Virus record (IMG/VR): IMGVR_UViG_2541047425_000010
DNA from: a virus
Taxonomy: Duplodnaviria; Heunggongvirae; Uroviricota; Caudoviricetes
Length of the DNA stretch: 18,707 nt
Direction: 5' to 3' (one strand)
Below are positions 3,001-9,000 of this stretch, one piece after another (positions within the stretch are counted from its first letter, which is position 1; every line of letters begins with the position of its first letter). Position numbers: made by a program.

Positions 3001-6000
3001 CCAGTTCAAGTGCGCACTGACCGCAACAAACTTTCTGATACGAGCGAAACGGCACAAACGGGGTTCCGCACACTTTGCATTTTTTAGGTTTACGTTGCTG
3101 CATCATCACCTCAGAAAAACGACAGCAGGCGGTTATTCAGTTCAGGGCTGTTTGAGCGCCCAAACACATGCTTTAACGCGGCATTAATCATTGAGTTGTA
3201 GCAACGTTCAAACTCATCCTGATCCATATTCGCGTAACTCAGGCTTTTTGCCCGATATCTCACCTCGCCTCTTATGGTTGTGACCACATCATAAAACCCG
3301 GCAAGAATTGTCAGATTTTTACGAAACTCATCAAACTGCGTCGCTTCATCAGAGAATTCGTATCCGGCATGTTCAGCGCACCAGTACTGAAAGCAGAAAT
3401 TAAGAAAAGCGAACATCTTCCGGTGAAAAGATGGGTTACGGGTAAGTTTTGCTTCCAGTGTATACAGCTCACCGTTTTTAAATTTTGCCAGTCGGGGTAA
3501 ATCGCGCTCATACGCCGGTACAAATACGCCATTAGCCGCCTTGATCATCTCTATTTCCATCAGGCAGCCTCCGCTTTGAATTTGCGCGTCAACACATGTT
3601 CACGGGCTTCACACCCCTGAATGAGCATGTCGTTAAAATCCGGCAAGTCAGGCCAGCGAATGCTGACTTTCTCAACGTCATTGCAACTCATGAGATTCTT
3701 ATGCCCACATTTAAAGGCAGCCGCCAGACCTGCGCCGTGCGCATCATTGTCAGCAAAGATAATCAGGTGATTAACGCCAGGTGGCGCAATGAACTTCTCC
3801 ATAAAACCGGAGTTCATTGTTGACCACACATTGCAGCGGAAGATTTGACGGCATGAAAGCGCCGTTTCGATACCCTCGGCTATCCCCAGAGTGGACGACA
3901 CCGGATACAGGCGTATTGCCACCGATTTAGCATGCTGCAAACCAGGCAACTCCTGTAGCGCAGTCATTTTTTTAGCCGCCTCTACATTCGCCTTGCGATC
4001 ACCATCCAGCAACGTACGATGCAGATAGCAAAGAGAACCTTTGTCATCTGTTGCAATGGCGTAAATTGCCTGATATTCGCGCCCGCTGGCGATCTGACGG
4101 TCACAGAAACGCACGGATTCGATCGGTAACTGGAGTATTCCCCTCCCCTGCAGGTACGCCTCACCTGTTGTGCCCCGCAGACACGGGAGTCCGGCAAACT
4201 TATCCATGACCAGCTTCCGCTTTCTGCTTATCTCTGTTACAGGCTGGCTGACTTTCTCCCTCTTCCAGGTATTTCCGATCAGCCGATCGATTTCATCACA
4301 CAACGTCACCCAGGGCTTACCCGTGGCAAGTTGCAACAGATTCATCCCGTCCCCGTGACCACAGACACAAATCCATGAACCGGAACCATCCTTATCATCA
4401 CAGCGAAATTTACCTCTGGCACCACATATCGGGCAGGGGCCGCTATAATGTTTCAAGCCAGTAACAGGAGGCATGCCGTAATATTCAAAAATTCGCCCCC
4501 AATGCCCGGCCGCTGCCTTCTTAGTCTGCATGCTGGCCTCCTGTCATGGCTTTCTTGCGCCCTTTGGCATAGGCAATGGTCTTTGACTTGATGAAGTTGT
4601 ACACTTCAACTGAGGTTTGCAGCGGCGCATTACTGAAGCCTTTAGGCCACACACCGAACTTCTCCTTGTAGGTATGAGCGCACCATCCGTCACTCAGGGG
4701 TTTACCCGTCGCGTTGCGGTAATTCTGATACCCCTTGATCTCACTCCACCAACGCTGCTTTTCCTCGCGACTGTATTCGCGTTTCCCTTTGTTTACGCGA
4801 GAGAGTTTTCGATCGCGGTCTGTTGCCACATCATCGCCACCAAGAGGACGAAACCCACATTTGGGACACATGTGTACACCAGCAGGCTTCATGAAGTGGC
4901 ATTTGGGGCATTCTCTGGGAAGTTTCTCAGCCTTAACCTCGCCACCGCCAGCAGACGCTTTCATTCCGTCATTTTTACCCGGCAGTTCGTCATACTCGAT
5001 ATCCTCGGGGAAGCCCAGCCGATGAACCGTACCAGAATGGTCAAAAATCAACGCACGTTTTTTACCTGGGGCTGTACGTAACGCTCTACCTATGCACTGC
5101 AACCAACGGATTTCTGATTTTGTCGGACGGGCGTAGATCAGGCAGCGAACATCGCTGTCAAATCCCGCAACCAGTACACCAACGTTGACAATTATTTTGG
5201 TCGCGCCCTCTTCAAAACGGCGAATGATGTCCTGTCGTTCATCATGGAGGGTATCTGCCGTCATCACCTCTGCACCAATACCGGCCTGTAAAAACTCACG
5301 GGTAACAAAATTCGCATGCGCAACATTCACGCAGAAGCAGATCGTCGGCAAATCCTCGCCATTCTCAAGCCAGTTGCGAACGATATCGCCAACCAGATCC
5401 GAACTCCCCATGATGGATGCGAGCTGCTCCTCGTTGTAATCCCGTCCAAATACGGTGTTACTGGTTTTTACGCCAGCCAGATCAGGCATTGAGGGGGCAA
5501 AAAACTCGTAATCGCTCAGATCACCACGCTGAATAAGTTCACGAATCGTTGTAGGCTTGAGCAGGCATTCGTAGTACTTCCCCATCCAGGCTGCGAACGG
5601 GGTGCCGGAAAGTCCAAGAACCCTGATGTCTCTGTCCCGGATAACCTCAAGTAACGCACGACGCTTCATGTGTGCTTCATCGATGATCAGCAGATCGATG
5701 TTGTCAGGAAACTCACGACGGATCAGCGTGTCGGCACTGGCAATCTGAATCAGTCGTGACGGGTCATAGTTAGGGTGATCACGCCATACAAAACTGATTT
5801 CTTCCCACGGCAAACCGTATTCGGTGAAACGTTCCGCTGTCTGGTTCAGCAGGATGGTGTACGGACAGACAAACATCACCCGCATACCACGTTCAACCAT
5901 TCCGGCAGTGACGAATGCTGCAAGACCAGTTTTGCCAGAGCCAGTGGGTGCATACATCAGGTACGTGCGATGCTGTTTCCACTGGTGCCGCAGCTGGTTT

Positions 6001-9000
6001 AAACCGCGCTCCTGAGCAAAGTTTGGGGTGATTTTCAGCATGACGCCCCCTTGCCATTCGCCGGGATGATATCGATCCCAGCATCGCTATAACTGGTCAG
6101 TTTCTTTGGCATTCGAAGCAACACAAAGCCTTCAGTGCCACGACGTGCCAATTCACGCAATTTCATGACTGAGCGGGGTCGCGGAGAGCTACGATCGATC
6201 TCGATAGCCACACTCCCACCAGTTTTTGCTGTTGCGAGAATATCAACACGGAAATTTCTGCCATCGATTCTTACTGTGACATTGCTTGCCACATGCATCC
6301 CCTGTGACTCAAGGATCGTTACGACATCAGCCAGAAAGCTGTAACGCTCCTCTGTTCTCAGTGGTACAGTGCTCAGTGTACGGATCAGTGCCGATTTGGT
6401 TGCTGCTGACATAGTTTATCACTCAATAGTTAGCTCGATAATTATTTCACCAGGAACTATCGCGCGCTTATACAGTGATCTACCTAACCTATGTACCTGC
6501 CTTCTGGCCTAGGCCAAGGGATACAGGCCTTACCAACGACTCCACCCCCTTACCCCCTCCTCGCTTCCTTTCAGGAAATTAGTTGCATGTGAAATTATTT
6601 CTAGCGCAACTAACCGCCATCATGGTGTCGGGGGAAACTTCCGTACCGCTACTGGCGAAAGCATCCAGCCACGGCTGGCTCTCGCGTACTTCTGGACATA
6701 CACCCGTAACCGGGTGTTGGCGCTCCGTCTTGCCCTGTTGCCCTTCCTGAACGATACAGGCTCCTTGTCCCACTCTTCCTGGTACACTCTCGCGTACTCT
6801 GCTGCAATTTTTACCCGGGTGGTCGGGTCTAGCTGTAACAATTGCTCCTGTATCCAGTCCCGATCAGCATCACAGTACTGCTCGGGCATAACCGTTTTGA
6901 TTTGCCTGTTCACTCACACCTCCGATGGGCTGTGTGTCCAGGATTAATCATCGCCTCTTACGAACGCAGGGAACGGACGAACCTCTTCCGCCTCAACTGT
7001 GCCGTCATCAAAGGTTTTGACGTATATTTCTCGTCCGACGAGAAGCGCTTTACTGATTGCACTCTGCGCCACGCCAAAGTCCTTAGCGGCTTTCTTTTGG
7101 CCGAACCTGTATACGTAATCAGCCAGGGTCTCTTTTTTCATCGCCATAACTGACTCCTTCAAAATGCCCATATCATTACGCACAGTTATTAAAATGTCAA
7201 CACCGCAGATATTTCATTACATATAACCAAAGGTGATATGGTATGAACATGAAAAAGAAACCGTTAACCCCTGAGCAACTGGAAGACGCCAAGCGTCTGA
7301 AAAGTATTTTTAACGCTAAAAAGAAAGAGTTAGGCCTGTCGCAGGAATCATTAGCCTATGAATTAGGTGTTACCCAAAGCGCTGTTAATCAGCTAATGGC
7401 TGGCATCAACGCCATAAATGCCAGCCACGCAGCACAGCTTGCTAAGATACTGAATGTAAAGGTCGGAGATTTCAGTCCCAGCCTGGCAAAATCTATTGCA
7501 GAAATGGCGCTCGCAATTGAAGAGCCATTAACTCGTGTCCCCGCTTACGAATATCCGTTACTCTCCTGCGTACAAGCTGGCGCATTCTCAATGGATGATA
7601 TTTCGTACACCGCAAAAGATGCGATTAAATGGATCTCCACCACCACAAAAGCCAGTGACAGGTCGTTCTGGCTGGAGGTCAAGGGGCATTCAATGACCGC
7701 ACCGCAGGGTGGTAAACCCAGCTTCCCTGAAGGTATGCTGATACTCGTTGACCCTGAACGGGAAATCGAGGATGGCGATTTTTGCGTGGCCCGAATGAAC
7801 GGCGATGAATTTACCTTCAAACGATTCATTCGTGAGAGCGGTAAAGCGTACCTGGAGCCGCTCAACCCACGATTCGACATGATTGAGTGTAACGAAAACT
7901 GCCAGTTTGTCGGAAAGGTCATCAAATCGCAGTGGAATGATGAGACTTTTGATTGAGCTCACAGAGTGATTTGACATCCTTCACGCCTGAAGAATGTGGA
8001 GGATGTCAAAAGCACGTTGGCATCATCATGCCACGTAAAGAGGATTAGTTATGCTTCAAAAGCTAGACGTCGCAGACAGCGTGCGTCGCGAGCTGTCTCC
8101 CCGTACCGCGCGTAAACACAAAGCAGAGTTCGGCCAGTTCATGACGCCTTCTGGCGTGGCCCGTTTTATGGCCTCCTTGTTTCCACCGAGCACAATGAAA
8201 ACTTGCCGTCTACTGGACGCAGGCGCTGGTTTAGGCGCACTGTCTTGCGCCTTCCTCGACCGTTGGCTGGTTGGCGAGTTTGGCTTTGAGTCTGTCGAGG
8301 CAACAGCCTACGAAATCGACAAAAAGCTGTGTGGTCACCTTGCGAAGCACTTAACCGGGTACAGGAGAGTGACGCCCCGCATCATCGAAGGGGATTATAT
8401 TGAGCTGGCAACCGCCGAAGGTCTACAGGATCGAGGTTATACCCATGCAATACTTAATCCGCCTTACAAGAAGATCAATAGCCAGTCAGCCCACCGGCAG
8501 GCTCTTCGCACTGTCGGTATCGAGACGGTAAATCTGTATTCCGCCTTTGTTGCACTGGCTGTAGGTGAGGTTGCACCTGGCGGGCAGATAGTGGCCATAA
8601 TCCCACGTAGTTTCTGCAACGGACCGTATTACCGTCCGTTCCGTAATTTCATACTTGAGCGGGCAGCAATCCGCCATATTCATTTGTTCGAATCACGTAG
8701 CAAAGCTTTCAGGGATGACGATGTGTTGCAGGAAAATATTATCATCCGCCTGGAGCGTGGAGGCCGTCAGGAGGCTGTTACAGTCACAACTTCGACCGAT
8801 GATAGCTTTTTTGACCTGGTCACCTACGAACACCCATTTGACCAGATTGTGTACCCGGACGATTCGGAGCGGTTTATTCATGTGCCGACCACGCTCGAGA
8901 AAAGCACCATTGAGTTATCATCTGCCGTACAATGTTCGCTGGCTGATATTGGCGTGAAGGTATCGACCGGACCGATAGTTGATTTCCGACTGAAAGCTCA

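What the first reader, a model, noticed from the sequence alone, without database searches (positions are those of the whole stretch)
3111..6412. Helicase-primase replication module in place of lambda O/P
A 125-aa ORF, an SF2 DEAH helicase with a C-terminal Cys4 ribbon, a Zn-ribbon/toprim primase and a 149-aa ORF are chained by overlapping stop/start codons, then joined to lambda-like ninG and phosphatase genes. Replication is therefore probably initiated by a phage-encoded helicase plus primase, independent of host DnaB loading, and the mosaic junction with near-lambda nin genes shows modular exchange.
Basis: partly seen in the sequence, partly recalled or inferred. Interest (0 to 1): 0.4.

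Follow-up and report, generated by a model that had tools for sequence, protein, structure and literature searches.

The report
Known Eru1 helicase-primase phage replication unit
This is the already described "Eru1" replication region of Shiga-toxin-2a prophages, in which a helicase and a primase replace lambda's O and P genes; how it starts replication has still not been tested.

Summary
Four intact minus-strand genes (125, 506, 323 and 149 aa) are chained by overlapping or abutting stop/start codons and are followed by ninG and a lambda-like phosphatase. The stretch 3111-6412 is 100% identical to Stx2a phages PA2, PA8 and VT2phi_272. Its proteins are 97-100% identical to Eru1A/B/C of phage TL-2011c, published in 2021 as a non-lambdoid replication unit, so the finding is already known.

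Refinements:
- The helicase is RadD-like. It is an SF2 DEAH enzyme with a Cys4 ribbon and an unassigned basic C-terminal domain.
- The primase is a stand-alone copy of the P4 alpha primase domain.
- The 149-aa protein (DUF1367) sits in the NinB slot and also follows lambda-P-type genes elsewhere, so it is not core.
- The 125-aa protein has a restriction-endonuclease-like fold and is an optional, swappable cassette.
- The conserved core is ORF97, a non-coding region, the helicase and the primase.
- That non-coding region (6413-6619) carries a near-invariant G-run pair and a GATC box. It is the best origin candidate.

DnaB independence is not shown. The lambda-like phosphatase comes from recombination inside ninG (2683-2724) with a second prophage.

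The parts
7243..7956 (+). cI-type repressor (HTH_3 + Peptidase_S24), identical to the Eru1 repressor Eru1r
   Evidence: Pfam and PHROG hits. 100% identical to TL-2011c F366_gp27.
7172..7200 (-). pR-like sigma-70 promoter (TTGACA-17-AATGAT) reading towards cro and the module
   Evidence: Consensus scan. Its position relative to cI and cro fits. Function is inferred.
6944..7147 (-). cro-like gene (67 aa from the ATG at 7147)
   Evidence: Annotated as a Cro/CI family regulator in phage PA2 at the equivalent position. Sequence read.
6620..6913 (-). ORF97 (phrog_852, function unknown). It occupies the cII position but is genetically linked to the helicase-primase pair across genera. Candidate specificity or initiator factor (inferred).
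   Evidence: PHROG hit. Homologues at 33-75% identity lie upstream of the helicase in nearly all related loci, including a Klebsiella and a Vibrio phage. No similarity to lambda CII, Pfam or PDB.
6413..6619 (-). Conserved non-coding region, the best origin or cis-control candidate. Elements: imperfect palindrome 6579-6613; G-run pair GGGGGTAAGGGGG 6545-6557; GATC box GGTTAGGTAGATCACTGTATA 6469-6489 inside an 80-nt conserved island 6426-6505; third copy of the GAAATAATT repeat at 6440-6459.
   Evidence: Repeats and sequence. Conservation across E. coli alleles and other genera. The G-run pair occurs 23 times upstream of the helicase on the sense strand, against 2 times elsewhere and 0 antisense, in 271 kb. 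No Rfam match and no consensus RNA fold.
6035..6412 (-). ORF125 (F366_gp29 homologue): small basic protein with a PD-(D/E)xK / Mrr-like nuclease fold. An optional cassette, translationally coupled to the helicase.
   Evidence: phrog_1347. Family alignment conserves D57, E71, D73, R78, S81 and K84. Profile hit to PDB 1Y88 at E=1.3e-4. Pfam MTES_1575 in 12 of 23 members and Mrr_cat in 6 of 23. A second allele is only 37% identical in otherwise 97-98% identical backbones. Present in only about 9 of 35 loci from other genera.
4521..6041 (-). Eru1A: SF2 DEAH-box helicase/ATPase with RadD-like architecture (two RecA-like domains, Cys4 zinc ribbon at residues 378-395, basic C-terminal domain at residues 400-506 of unknown fold)
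   Evidence: Pfam and PHROG. 98% identical to TL-2011c Eru1A. Best solved relative is RadD 6jde at E=1.2e-16, with the zinc ribbons aligned. NCBIfam RadD scores 89 bits against a cut-off of 720. Motifs. The C-terminal domain has no hits.
3560..4531 (-). Eru1B: stand-alone primase of the P4-alpha/T7-gp4 type (zinc ribbon + DUF7146 + Toprim), with no attached helicase domain
   Evidence: Pfam and phrog_510. 97% identical to TL-2011c Eru1B. Colinear with P4 alpha residues 8-302 at 27% identity and E=1e-16, including EGIETA against EGYATA.
3111..3560 (-). Eru1C: DUF1367 protein in the NinB slot of the nin region, probably a NinB/Orf-like recombination mediator rather than a replication protein
2540..3109 (-). 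ninG (Rap-type junction endonuclease), itself chimeric
   Evidence: PF05766 at E=3e-71. 65% identical to lambda NinG.
2683..2724 (.). Crossover interval inside ninG. To the right (2725 and above) the window is Stx2a/Eru1 phage DNA. To the left (2682 and below) it is DNA of a CP-933K-like lambda-type prophage.
   Evidence: The last mismatch to PA2 is at 2682 and the first mismatch to the second prophage is at 2725. Supporting searches. No complete E. coli genome carries this junction.
1878..2543 (-). NinI-type serine/threonine phosphatase, 95% identical to lambda NinI. It belongs to the second prophage, not to the Eru1 phage.

Best explanation
The stretch is the early-right (pR) operon replication region of an Oslovirus-type Stx2a prophage, the published 'Eru1' unit.

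Proposed sequence of events:
1. After the repressor is inactivated, transcription from pR runs through cro, ORF97, the conserved non-coding region, ORF125, eru1A, eru1B and eru1C into the nin genes. The genes are translationally coupled.
2. Eru1B, a free-standing P4-alpha-type zinc-ribbon/Toprim primase, makes the primers and takes over the role of host DnaG.
3. Eru1A, a RadD-like SF2 DEAH ATPase with a zinc ribbon and a basic C-terminal domain, supplies the DNA-opening or DNA-remodelling motor in place of lambda O/P.
4. The origin most probably lies in the conserved non-coding segment 6413-6619 (G-run pair, GATC box, flanking repeats). ORF97 is the most likely sequence-specific partner.
5. 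ORF125 (nuclease fold) and DUF1367 (NinB-like) are accessory proteins, not core.

Shown: gene identities, intact motifs, position, linkage and conservation.
Inferred: every biochemical step, the origin location, and any independence from DnaB, DnaC or DnaG.
For: - Identity to published Eru1 genes and to the Eru1 repressor.
- 100% DNA identity to isolated, transducible phages PA2 and PA8, including WG5::PA2 and WG5::PA8 lysogens, so the module works in viable phages.
- No O or P domains between cI and ninG.
- Intact helicase and primase motifs.
- Primase colinear with the P4 alpha primase domain.
- The helicase-primase pair is kept together in the complete loci among 35 from other Enterobacterales genera, and in a Klebsiella and a Vibrio phage, nearly always with ORF97 and a non-coding gap upstream.
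- The G-run pair and GATC box are conserved while the proteins have diverged to 59-69% identity.
- The equivalent gap in the Vibrio phage carries an AT-rich stretch and iterons next to a gene annotated 'replication protein'.
- Homologous SF2 helicases occur in 1783 phage records, including orf443 of Streptococcus phage Sfi21. From memory, orf443 belongs to a helicase-plus-primase replication module.
Against: - No experiment on Eru1 replication was found. The two Eru papers classify and correlate but do not test mechanism or map an origin.
- SF2 enzymes are not typical fork helicases.
- The phage also carries SSB, RecT, an exonuclease, a Gam-like protein, a NinB-like protein and NinG, so a recombination-linked role for the helicase is possible.
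- No classical iteron array or obvious unwinding element was found in the window.
- The flanking-repeat pattern reaches significance in only 7 of 28 loci.
Confidence: 0.75

Rival explanations
1. One reading: a fully autonomous helicase-primase front end. Eru1A is itself the fork helicase and Eru1B the only primase, so replication needs neither DnaB/DnaC loading nor DnaG. This would resemble P4 alpha or the herpesvirus helicase-primase.
For: - No helicase-loader (lambda P, DnaC-like) or DnaB-like gene lies between cI and ninG or in the pL operon.
- The primase is homologous to that of P4 alpha. From general knowledge, P4 alpha replication is independent of DnaA, DnaB, DnaC and DnaG.
- The helicase motifs are intact.
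Against: - In P4 the helicase is an SF3 ring fused to the primase. Here that domain is missing and is replaced by a RadD-like SF2 protein.
- Nothing here tests host dependence.
Confidence: 0.3
2. The helicase is mainly a recombination or fork-remodelling motor, like RadD or T4 UvsW. Genome amplification would then rely on recombination-dependent or transcript-primed initiation, with host DnaB loaded by restart pathways. The primase would serve lagging-strand or restart priming rather than origin firing.
For: - The best solved and NCBIfam relatives are RadD, with UvsW, RecG and PriA as weaker hits.
- The same phage encodes SSB, RecT, an exonuclease, a Gam-like protein, a NinB-like protein and NinG.
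- No classical iteron origin is present.
Against: - The strict pairing with a primase, the position in the O/P slot, and the tightly conserved cis element just upstream in many genera all look like an origin-plus-initiator unit.
- The phage has no other candidate initiator.
Confidence: 0.12
3. ORF125 plus the SF2 helicase form a nuclease-helicase anti-phage defence or exclusion cassette carried as a moron, not a replication system.
For: - ORF125 has a restriction-endonuclease-like fold and shows cassette-like allelic replacement.
- The helicase gives weak domain-level hits to defence helicases such as PbeA, type IV REase, DpdF and Cas3.
Against: - The PADLOC hits are generic SF2 matches at low scores. 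ORF125, the primase, ORF97 and DUF1367 hit no defence model.
- ORF125 is absent from most related loci while the helicase-primase pair persists.
- The phage would be left with no replication genes.
Confidence: 0.03

Closest known systems
Eru1 replication unit of Stx phages (eru1A/B/C of phage TL-2011c, NC_019442; Llarena et al. 2021, PMC8044961; Fagerlund et al. 2022, PMC8951638)
   Same: Same genes in the same order. Identities: Eru1A 98%, Eru1B 97%, Eru1C 99%, upstream gp29 100%, repressor 100%. O and P are absent.
   Different: Nothing essential. Only the DNA downstream of ninG differs: here a lambda-like phosphatase and lpxR from a second prophage, instead of ninH-Q-stx2.
Satellite phage P4 alpha protein (primase + SF3 helicase + origin-binding domain)
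   Same: Eru1B aligns end to end with the alpha primase domain (residues 8-302). It shares the zinc ribbon, the EGYATA-type Toprim glutamate motif and the acidic DxD motif.
   Different: Eru1B lacks alpha's SF3 helicase and origin-binding domains. A separate SF2 protein is encoded instead. P4's type I and type II ori repeats have no counterpart here.
E. coli RadD (YejH), PDB 6jde
   Same: SF2 core followed by a Cys4 zinc ribbon and a C-terminal domain. It is the best solved-structure and NCBIfam match.
   Different: Only distantly related: 89 bits against the equivalog cut-off of 720. RadD is a chromosomal repair factor not paired with a primase. The C-terminal domains are unrelated by sequence.
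Lambda O/P replication module with ori inside O
   Same: Same genomic slot, the same pR-driven early operon, and the same downstream nin region.
   Different: No sequence or domain similarity. There is no iteron array inside a coding gene. The candidate cis element is intergenic.
Sfi21-type helicase-primase replication modules of Streptococcus thermophilus phages
   Same: Sfi21 orf443 is a detectable homologue of the helicase (25% identity, E=7e-20). From memory of the literature, the module pairs it with a primase and has a non-coding origin.
   Different: Very distant. The accessory genes and hosts differ. The primase relationship was not tested here.
Lambda NinB/Orf (PDB 1PC6)

Membership tests
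Eru1 replication unit (Llarena 2021) | eru1A: 506-aa SF2 DEAH helicase | tested here: met
   497/506 identical to TL-2011c F366_gp30. Motifs.
Eru1 replication unit (Llarena 2021) | eru1B: 323-aa Toprim protein immediately downstream | tested here: met
   313/323 identical to F366_gp31.
Eru1 replication unit (Llarena 2021) | eru1C: 149-aa DUF1367 protein | tested here: met
   147/149 identical to F366_gp32.
Eru1 replication unit (Llarena 2021) | No lambda O and P genes; Eru1-type LexA-like repressor | tested here: met
   No Phage_rep_O or Phage_lambda_P hits. The repressor is 237/237 identical to Eru1r.
Eru1 replication unit (Llarena 2021) | Actually drives phage DNA replication | not testable with these tools
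   The papers give no replication assay either. Identical modules do occur in viable phages.
SF2 helicases | Motifs I, II (DEAH), III and VI in two RecA-like domains | tested here: met
   Pfam ResIII, DEAD and Helicase_C.
RadD/YejH orthologues | Score above the NCBIfam equivalog cut-off | tested here: not met
   89.2 bits against a cut-off of 720. It is RadD-like in architecture only.
Hexameric replicative helicases (DnaB, or SF3/SF4 of P4 alpha and T7 gp4) | DnaB_C or SF3 D5-type ATPase domain | tested here: not met
   No such domain in any of the four proteins. P4 alpha residues beyond 302 have no counterpart.
P4-alpha/T7-gp4-type primases | N-terminal Cys4 zinc ribbon (PF08273) plus a Toprim domain with a conserved Glu and DxD | tested here: met
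   PF08273 at E=9e-15 and Toprim_3 at E=1e-10. E219, D261 and D263. Alignment to P4 alpha.
P4-alpha/T7-gp4-type primases | Primer synthesis activity | not testable with these tools
   Needs biochemistry.
Lambda NinB/Orf family | Sequence membership (PF05772 / phrog_72) | tested here: not met
   BLASTP E=57. hhalign probability 0.2%. Lambda NinB falls in phrog_72 and ORF149 in phrog_319.
Lambda NinB/Orf family | NinB fold and gene position | tested here: inconclusive
PD-(D/E)xK nuclease superfamily (ORF125) | alpha-beta-beta-beta-alpha-beta core with an acidic residue in strand 2 and an (D/E)xK-like motif in strand 3 | tested here: inconclusive
   Conserved D57 and E71-x-D73 plus K84. Profile hit to 1Y88 at E=1.3e-4. 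MTES_1575, Mrr_cat and Hjc hits among family members, all below the curated cut-offs. The single-sequence model was too poor to use (pLDDT 40), although its secondary-structure order fits.
Lambda CII (ORF97) | Sequence similarity to CII / HTH | tested here: not met
   hhalign probability 0.2%. No Pfam or PDB hit.

The most novel reading that the evidence does not exclude
The true conserved unit is ORF97, a non-coding core, the SF2 helicase and the primase. The core is a pair of G5-7 runs on the sense strand followed about 45 nt later by a GATC box. In this reading the core is a new kind of phage origin fired by pR transcription. The G-rich transcript would form a persistent RNA-DNA hybrid or G-quadruplex-stabilised R-loop, as at ColE1, mitochondrial CSBII or T4 oriF/oriG. 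That opens the duplex and lets the RadD/UvsW-like helicase and the P4-type primase start forks. ORF97 and the lineage-specific flanking repeats would give specificity. The slot between the core and the helicase would hold interchangeable accessory proteins: a nuclease-fold ORF125 with two alleles at 37% identity, a winged-helix Rep in Vibrio phages, or nothing.
Probability: 0.15. Interest if true: 0.65.

Novelty: already known. Interest (0 to 1): 0.3.

Why it matters
Eru1-type Stx2a phages are carried by the most virulent EHEC lineages: the O104:H4 2011 outbreak strain, the O103:H25 2006 strain and O157:H7 clade 8. They are reported to be less stable lysogens (PMC8044961). Phage genome amplification sets stx2 copy number and toxin output. 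Knowing whether this module depends on DnaB, DnaC or DnaG, and where its origin lies, is therefore relevant to virulence prediction and to anti-induction strategies.

The finding itself adds no new entity. The comparative refinement gives concrete targets for experiments that have not yet been done: the core is ORF97, the non-coding G-run/GATC element, the helicase and the primase, while ORF125 and DUF1367 are accessory.

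Tried and rejected
- **ORF125 structure.** A single-sequence AlphaFold model had pLDDT 39.7, too poor for a fold search. Classification rests on profile searches instead.
- **ORF125 homologues.** The word-based homologue search found only near-identical proteins. The exhaustive HMMER search was needed.
- **DUF1367 against lambda NinB.** BLASTP and hhalign found nothing. PHROGs places the two in different families.
- **ORF97.** No relation to lambda CII, Pfam or PDB.
- **Helicase C-terminal domain (residues 400-506).** No PDB or Pfam hit.
- **Primase against solved structures.** No sequence hit.
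- **Iterons or long repeats inside the four genes.** None convincing.
- **The 21-nt GATC box.** It is single-copy in the window.
- **Promoter or terminator reading of the conserved island.** No good sigma-70 match and no terminator on the minus strand there.
- **Structured RNA reading.** No Rfam match. RNAalifold predicts no conserved pairs.
- **nut-site reading.** Considered because some loci have small GAA/GNRA-loop hairpins between the two conserved boxes. Rejected because those hairpins are not conserved, no boxA was seen by eye in the sequence, and the G-run pair has no second copy on the strand of the leftward (pL) operon.
- **15-mer scan of viral contigs.** It gave 102 hits, but only about 40 carry the module. 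The rest lack it and are probably chance matches.
- **Flanking lineage-specific repeats.** An exact-match test was significant in only 7 of 28 loci, so this is reported as suggestive only.
- **Defence-system reading.** Only generic SF2 hits.
- **Distant ORF125 relatives on short metagenome contigs.** These gave no useful context.
- **Literature search for the two conserved motifs.** Nothing found.

Full report
**What is there**

On the minus strand the window carries an early-right operon of a lambdoid-organised prophage. Its parts, in order:
- a cI-type repressor (7243-7956, plus strand) facing a pR-like promoter (7200-7172)
- cro (7147-6944)
- a 97-aa gene (6913-6620)
- a 207-nt non-coding gap
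- a 125-aa gene (6412-6035)
- a 506-aa helicase (6041-4521)
- a 323-aa primase (4531-3560)
- a 149-aa DUF1367 gene (3560-3111)
- ninG (3109-2540)
- a NinI-type phosphatase (2543-1878)

The overlaps are 7, 11 and 1 nt. A gap of 1 nt (GTG start) or 4 nt (ATG start) precedes ninG. A 4-nt overlap leads into the phosphatase gene. Shine-Dalgarno-like runs precede each start.

The helicase has Walker A (31-38), DEAH (121-124), SGT (145-147) and QxxGRxxR (315-322). Its Cys4 ribbon is at residues 378-395. A basic domain of about 110 aa with no detectable relatives follows.

The primase has a CPIC...CVC zinc ribbon. Its Toprim domain has EGIE at 219 and DND at 261.

**It is a known entity**

Window 3111-6412 is 100% identical to Stx2a phages PA2, PA8, VT2phi_272, Stx2a_F765, ArgO145 and others. 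It occurs in 98 phage records and in 153 of 5426 complete E. coli genomes. Window 2540-18707 is 99.9% identical to the early region of these phages.

Llarena et al. 2021 (PMC8044961) described exactly this gene set in phage TL-2011c as the 'Eru1' EHEC-phage replication unit. It consists of eru1A (506-aa SF2 DEAH helicase), eru1B (323-aa Toprim protein) and eru1C (149-aa DUF1367). It replaces lambda O and P and has its own LexA-like repressor.

Direct comparison with TL-2011c gives these identities:
- Eru1A 98%
- Eru1B 97%
- Eru1C 99%
- the upstream 125-aa protein 100%
- the repressor 100%

A follow-up paper extended the typing to Eru1-13 (PMC8951638). Neither paper maps an origin or tests the replication mechanism. 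I found no later experimental work.

**What the proteins are**

*Helicase.* Its closest solved relative is E. coli RadD/YejH (6jde, E=1.2e-16), and the two zinc ribbons align. Next come SauUSI-like (identification of 7clg from memory), XPB, Hef and UvsW enzymes. NCBIfam agrees but places it far below orthologue level, at 89 bits against a cut-off of 720. [quoted passage not shown] Eru1A is thus an SF2 motor of RadD-like architecture and not a ring helicase.

*Primase.* It aligns end to end with residues 8-302 of the P4 alpha protein (27% identity, E=1e-16). The alignment includes the zinc ribbon, the EGYATA-type motif (here EGIETA) and the acidic motif. It lacks alpha's SF3 helicase and origin-binding domains.

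*ORF125.* It belongs to a small family that conserves D57, E71-x-D73, R78, S81 and K84. The family's profile hits the Mrr-like protein AF1548 (1Y88, E=1.3e-4). Its members hit the Pfam models MTES_1575, Mrr_cat, Hjc and NucS, all below the curated cut-offs. This indicates a PD-(D/E)xK nuclease fold.

**What belongs to the module**

Comparative loci change the picture from four chained genes.

1. *DUF1367 is not core.* It follows lambda-P-type replication genes in two unrelated prophages and is itself followed by NinG/Q genes. It is absent from all 35 helicase-primase loci recovered from Yersinia, Serratia, Pantoea, Xenorhabdus, Photorhabdus, Morganella and others. It is a nin-region gene in the NinB slot.

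2. *ORF125 is optional.* It is present in about 9 of those 35 loci. In E. coli phages there are two alleles only 37% identical. They sit in backbones that are 97-98% identical on either side, with exchange borders at about 6637 and 6047. In a Vibrio phage the same slot holds a winged-helix 'replication protein'. In a Klebsiella phage it holds a 122-aa protein whose family was not checked.

3. *The helicase and primase stay together* in the complete loci among the 35.

It shows no similarity to lambda CII or to anything known.

5. *The non-coding gap between ORF97 and the helicase (or ORF125) has a conserved architecture.*
   - An imperfect palindrome lies at window 6579-6613.
   - A near-invariant pair of G runs follows (GGGGGTAAGGGGG, 6557-6545). 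In 271 kb of related loci this pattern occurs 23 times in the 1.5 kb upstream of the helicase on the sense strand, twice elsewhere and never antisense.
   - About 45 nt further on is a GATC-containing box (GGTTAGGTAGATCACTGTATA, 6489-6469).
   - In the window there is a third copy of the GAAATAATT repeat.
   - The flanking repeats differ between lineages (GAAATAATT, GTACTAG, TAGACGTCTA), but this pattern is statistically supported in only 7 of 28 loci.
   - The element matches no Rfam family and has no conserved RNA fold. It was not found in the searchable literature.

**Mechanism**

The best-supported reading is that pR transcription expresses a translationally coupled set. A P4-alpha-type primase replaces DnaG. 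A RadD-like SF2 ATPase replaces the O/P initiator-loader functions. Both act at a cis element in the ORF97-helicase gap.

*Shown:* identities, motifs, linkage, conservation, and the presence of identical modules in viable, transducible phages such as the WG5::PA2 and WG5::PA8 lysogens.

*Inferred:* all activities, the origin location and host-factor independence.

The claim of DnaB independence is not supported by anything available. It is somewhat disfavoured by the nature of the helicase, though the absence of any loader gene keeps it open.

The phage also carries SSB, RecT, an exonuclease, a Gam-like protein, a NinB-like protein and NinG. A recombination-linked role for the helicase is therefore a live minor rival. 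A defence-cassette reading is weak.

**The mosaic junction**

In Eru1 phages the module is normally followed by ninG-ninH-Q-stx2. Here window 1-2724 is instead 100% identical to a different, CP-933K-like lambda-type prophage of O157:H7. That prophage carries NinE, NinF, NinG, the phosphatase, LpxR, YlcG and Q. The same stretch is 98.5% identical to phage 434.

Mismatch mapping places the crossover inside ninG between 2683 and 2724. In strain 272 the two prophages lie at 0.90 and 3.16 Mb in opposite orientation. Recombination between them would therefore invert a large chromosome segment. From my own knowledge of the O157:H7 chromosome map, that segment would be centred on the terminus.

None of 5426 complete genomes carries this junction; the best match is 94% identity over 83% of the query. 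The window therefore comes from a rare recombinant or from an assembly chimera. The 'near-lambda' phosphatase (95% to lambda NinI) is not evidence about how the replication module was acquired.

**Verdict**

The entity is already known (Eru1).

The value added here is the redefinition of the conserved core, the identification of a conserved candidate origin element, and structural assignments for the two small proteins. Interest for the finding as stated is modest.

Noticed in passing
window 2683-2724 (inside ninG); window 1-2724 against 2725-18707: The window is a hybrid of two prophages, an Stx2a/Eru1 phage and a CP-933K-like lambda-type prophage, joined by a clean crossover in ninG. In strain 272 the two parents lie at 0.90 and 3.16 Mb in opposite orientation, so the junction could mark a large inversion. 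No complete E. coli genome in the collection has it, so it is a rare recombinant or an assembly chimera.
   Followed up: partly
window 6047-6637; loci L025, L032, L047, L055, L061, L064, L067, L068, L071, L081: ORF125 exists as two alleles only about 37% identical in protein sequence. They sit between an ORF97 that is 97% identical and a helicase that is 98% identical. This is a cassette replacement that keeps the upstream conserved DNA island and the helicase ribosome-binding site.
   Followed up: yes
window 6545-6557 and 6469-6489 (minus strand); alignments A5 and A7: A near-invariant pair of G runs (G5-7-TAA-G5-7) and a GATC box about 45 nt downstream are conserved between ORF97 and the helicase in E. 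coli, Salmonella-type, Klebsiella, Yersinia, Serratia, Pantoea, Xenorhabdus, Photorhabdus and Morganella prophages. The G runs are always on the sense strand. There is no RNA fold, no Rfam match and no mention in the searchable literature.
   Followed up: partly
window 6620-6913 (minus strand): ORF97 (phrog_852) sits where cII would be and has the same length as lambda CII (97 aa), but it is unrelated to CII. It co-occurs with helicase-primase pairs as far away as Vibrio phages. Some recent phage records annotate it as a 'CII transcriptional activator' without visible support.
   Followed up: partly
L151 4753-5104 (Vibrio phage 1.233.B): In the equivalent gap of a Vibrio phage there is a terminator-like hairpin, an AT-rich stretch and three copies of an iteron (CGACAGAACCTGTCG). 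These lie upstream of a winged-helix 'replication protein' that occupies the ORF125 slot. It looks like a more conventional Rep-and-iteron version of the same module.
   Followed up: no
window 8051-10470 (plus strand): A BsuBI/PstI-type restriction-modification pair (methylase 489 aa, endonuclease 317 aa) lies directly downstream of cI. This is the position of rexAB in lambda.
   Followed up: no
window 10471-11330: About 860 nt between the restriction gene and the Rha/Ant-like regulator are unannotated in phage PA2. The stretch contains only short ORFs, for example 10619-10816 (65 aa). It is a possible pL/N-like region.
   Followed up: no
window 707-1666 (plus strand), 1810-1881, 247-366, 1-232: An LpxR lipid A deacylase gene is inserted, on the opposite strand, between the phosphatase and the YlcG/Q genes of the second prophage. 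A remnant of an antitermination gene lies beside it. It looks like a moron replacing part of the lambda Q region, and phage 434 has the same arrangement.
   Followed up: no
window 12575-15098 and 17034-17912 (plus strand): The leftward operon encodes a Gam-like inhibitor, RecT, a RecE-like exonuclease, a phage SSB and a PAPS-reductase-like protein. Together with the NinB-like protein and NinG this is a full recombination toolkit next to a RadD-like helicase.
   Followed up: no
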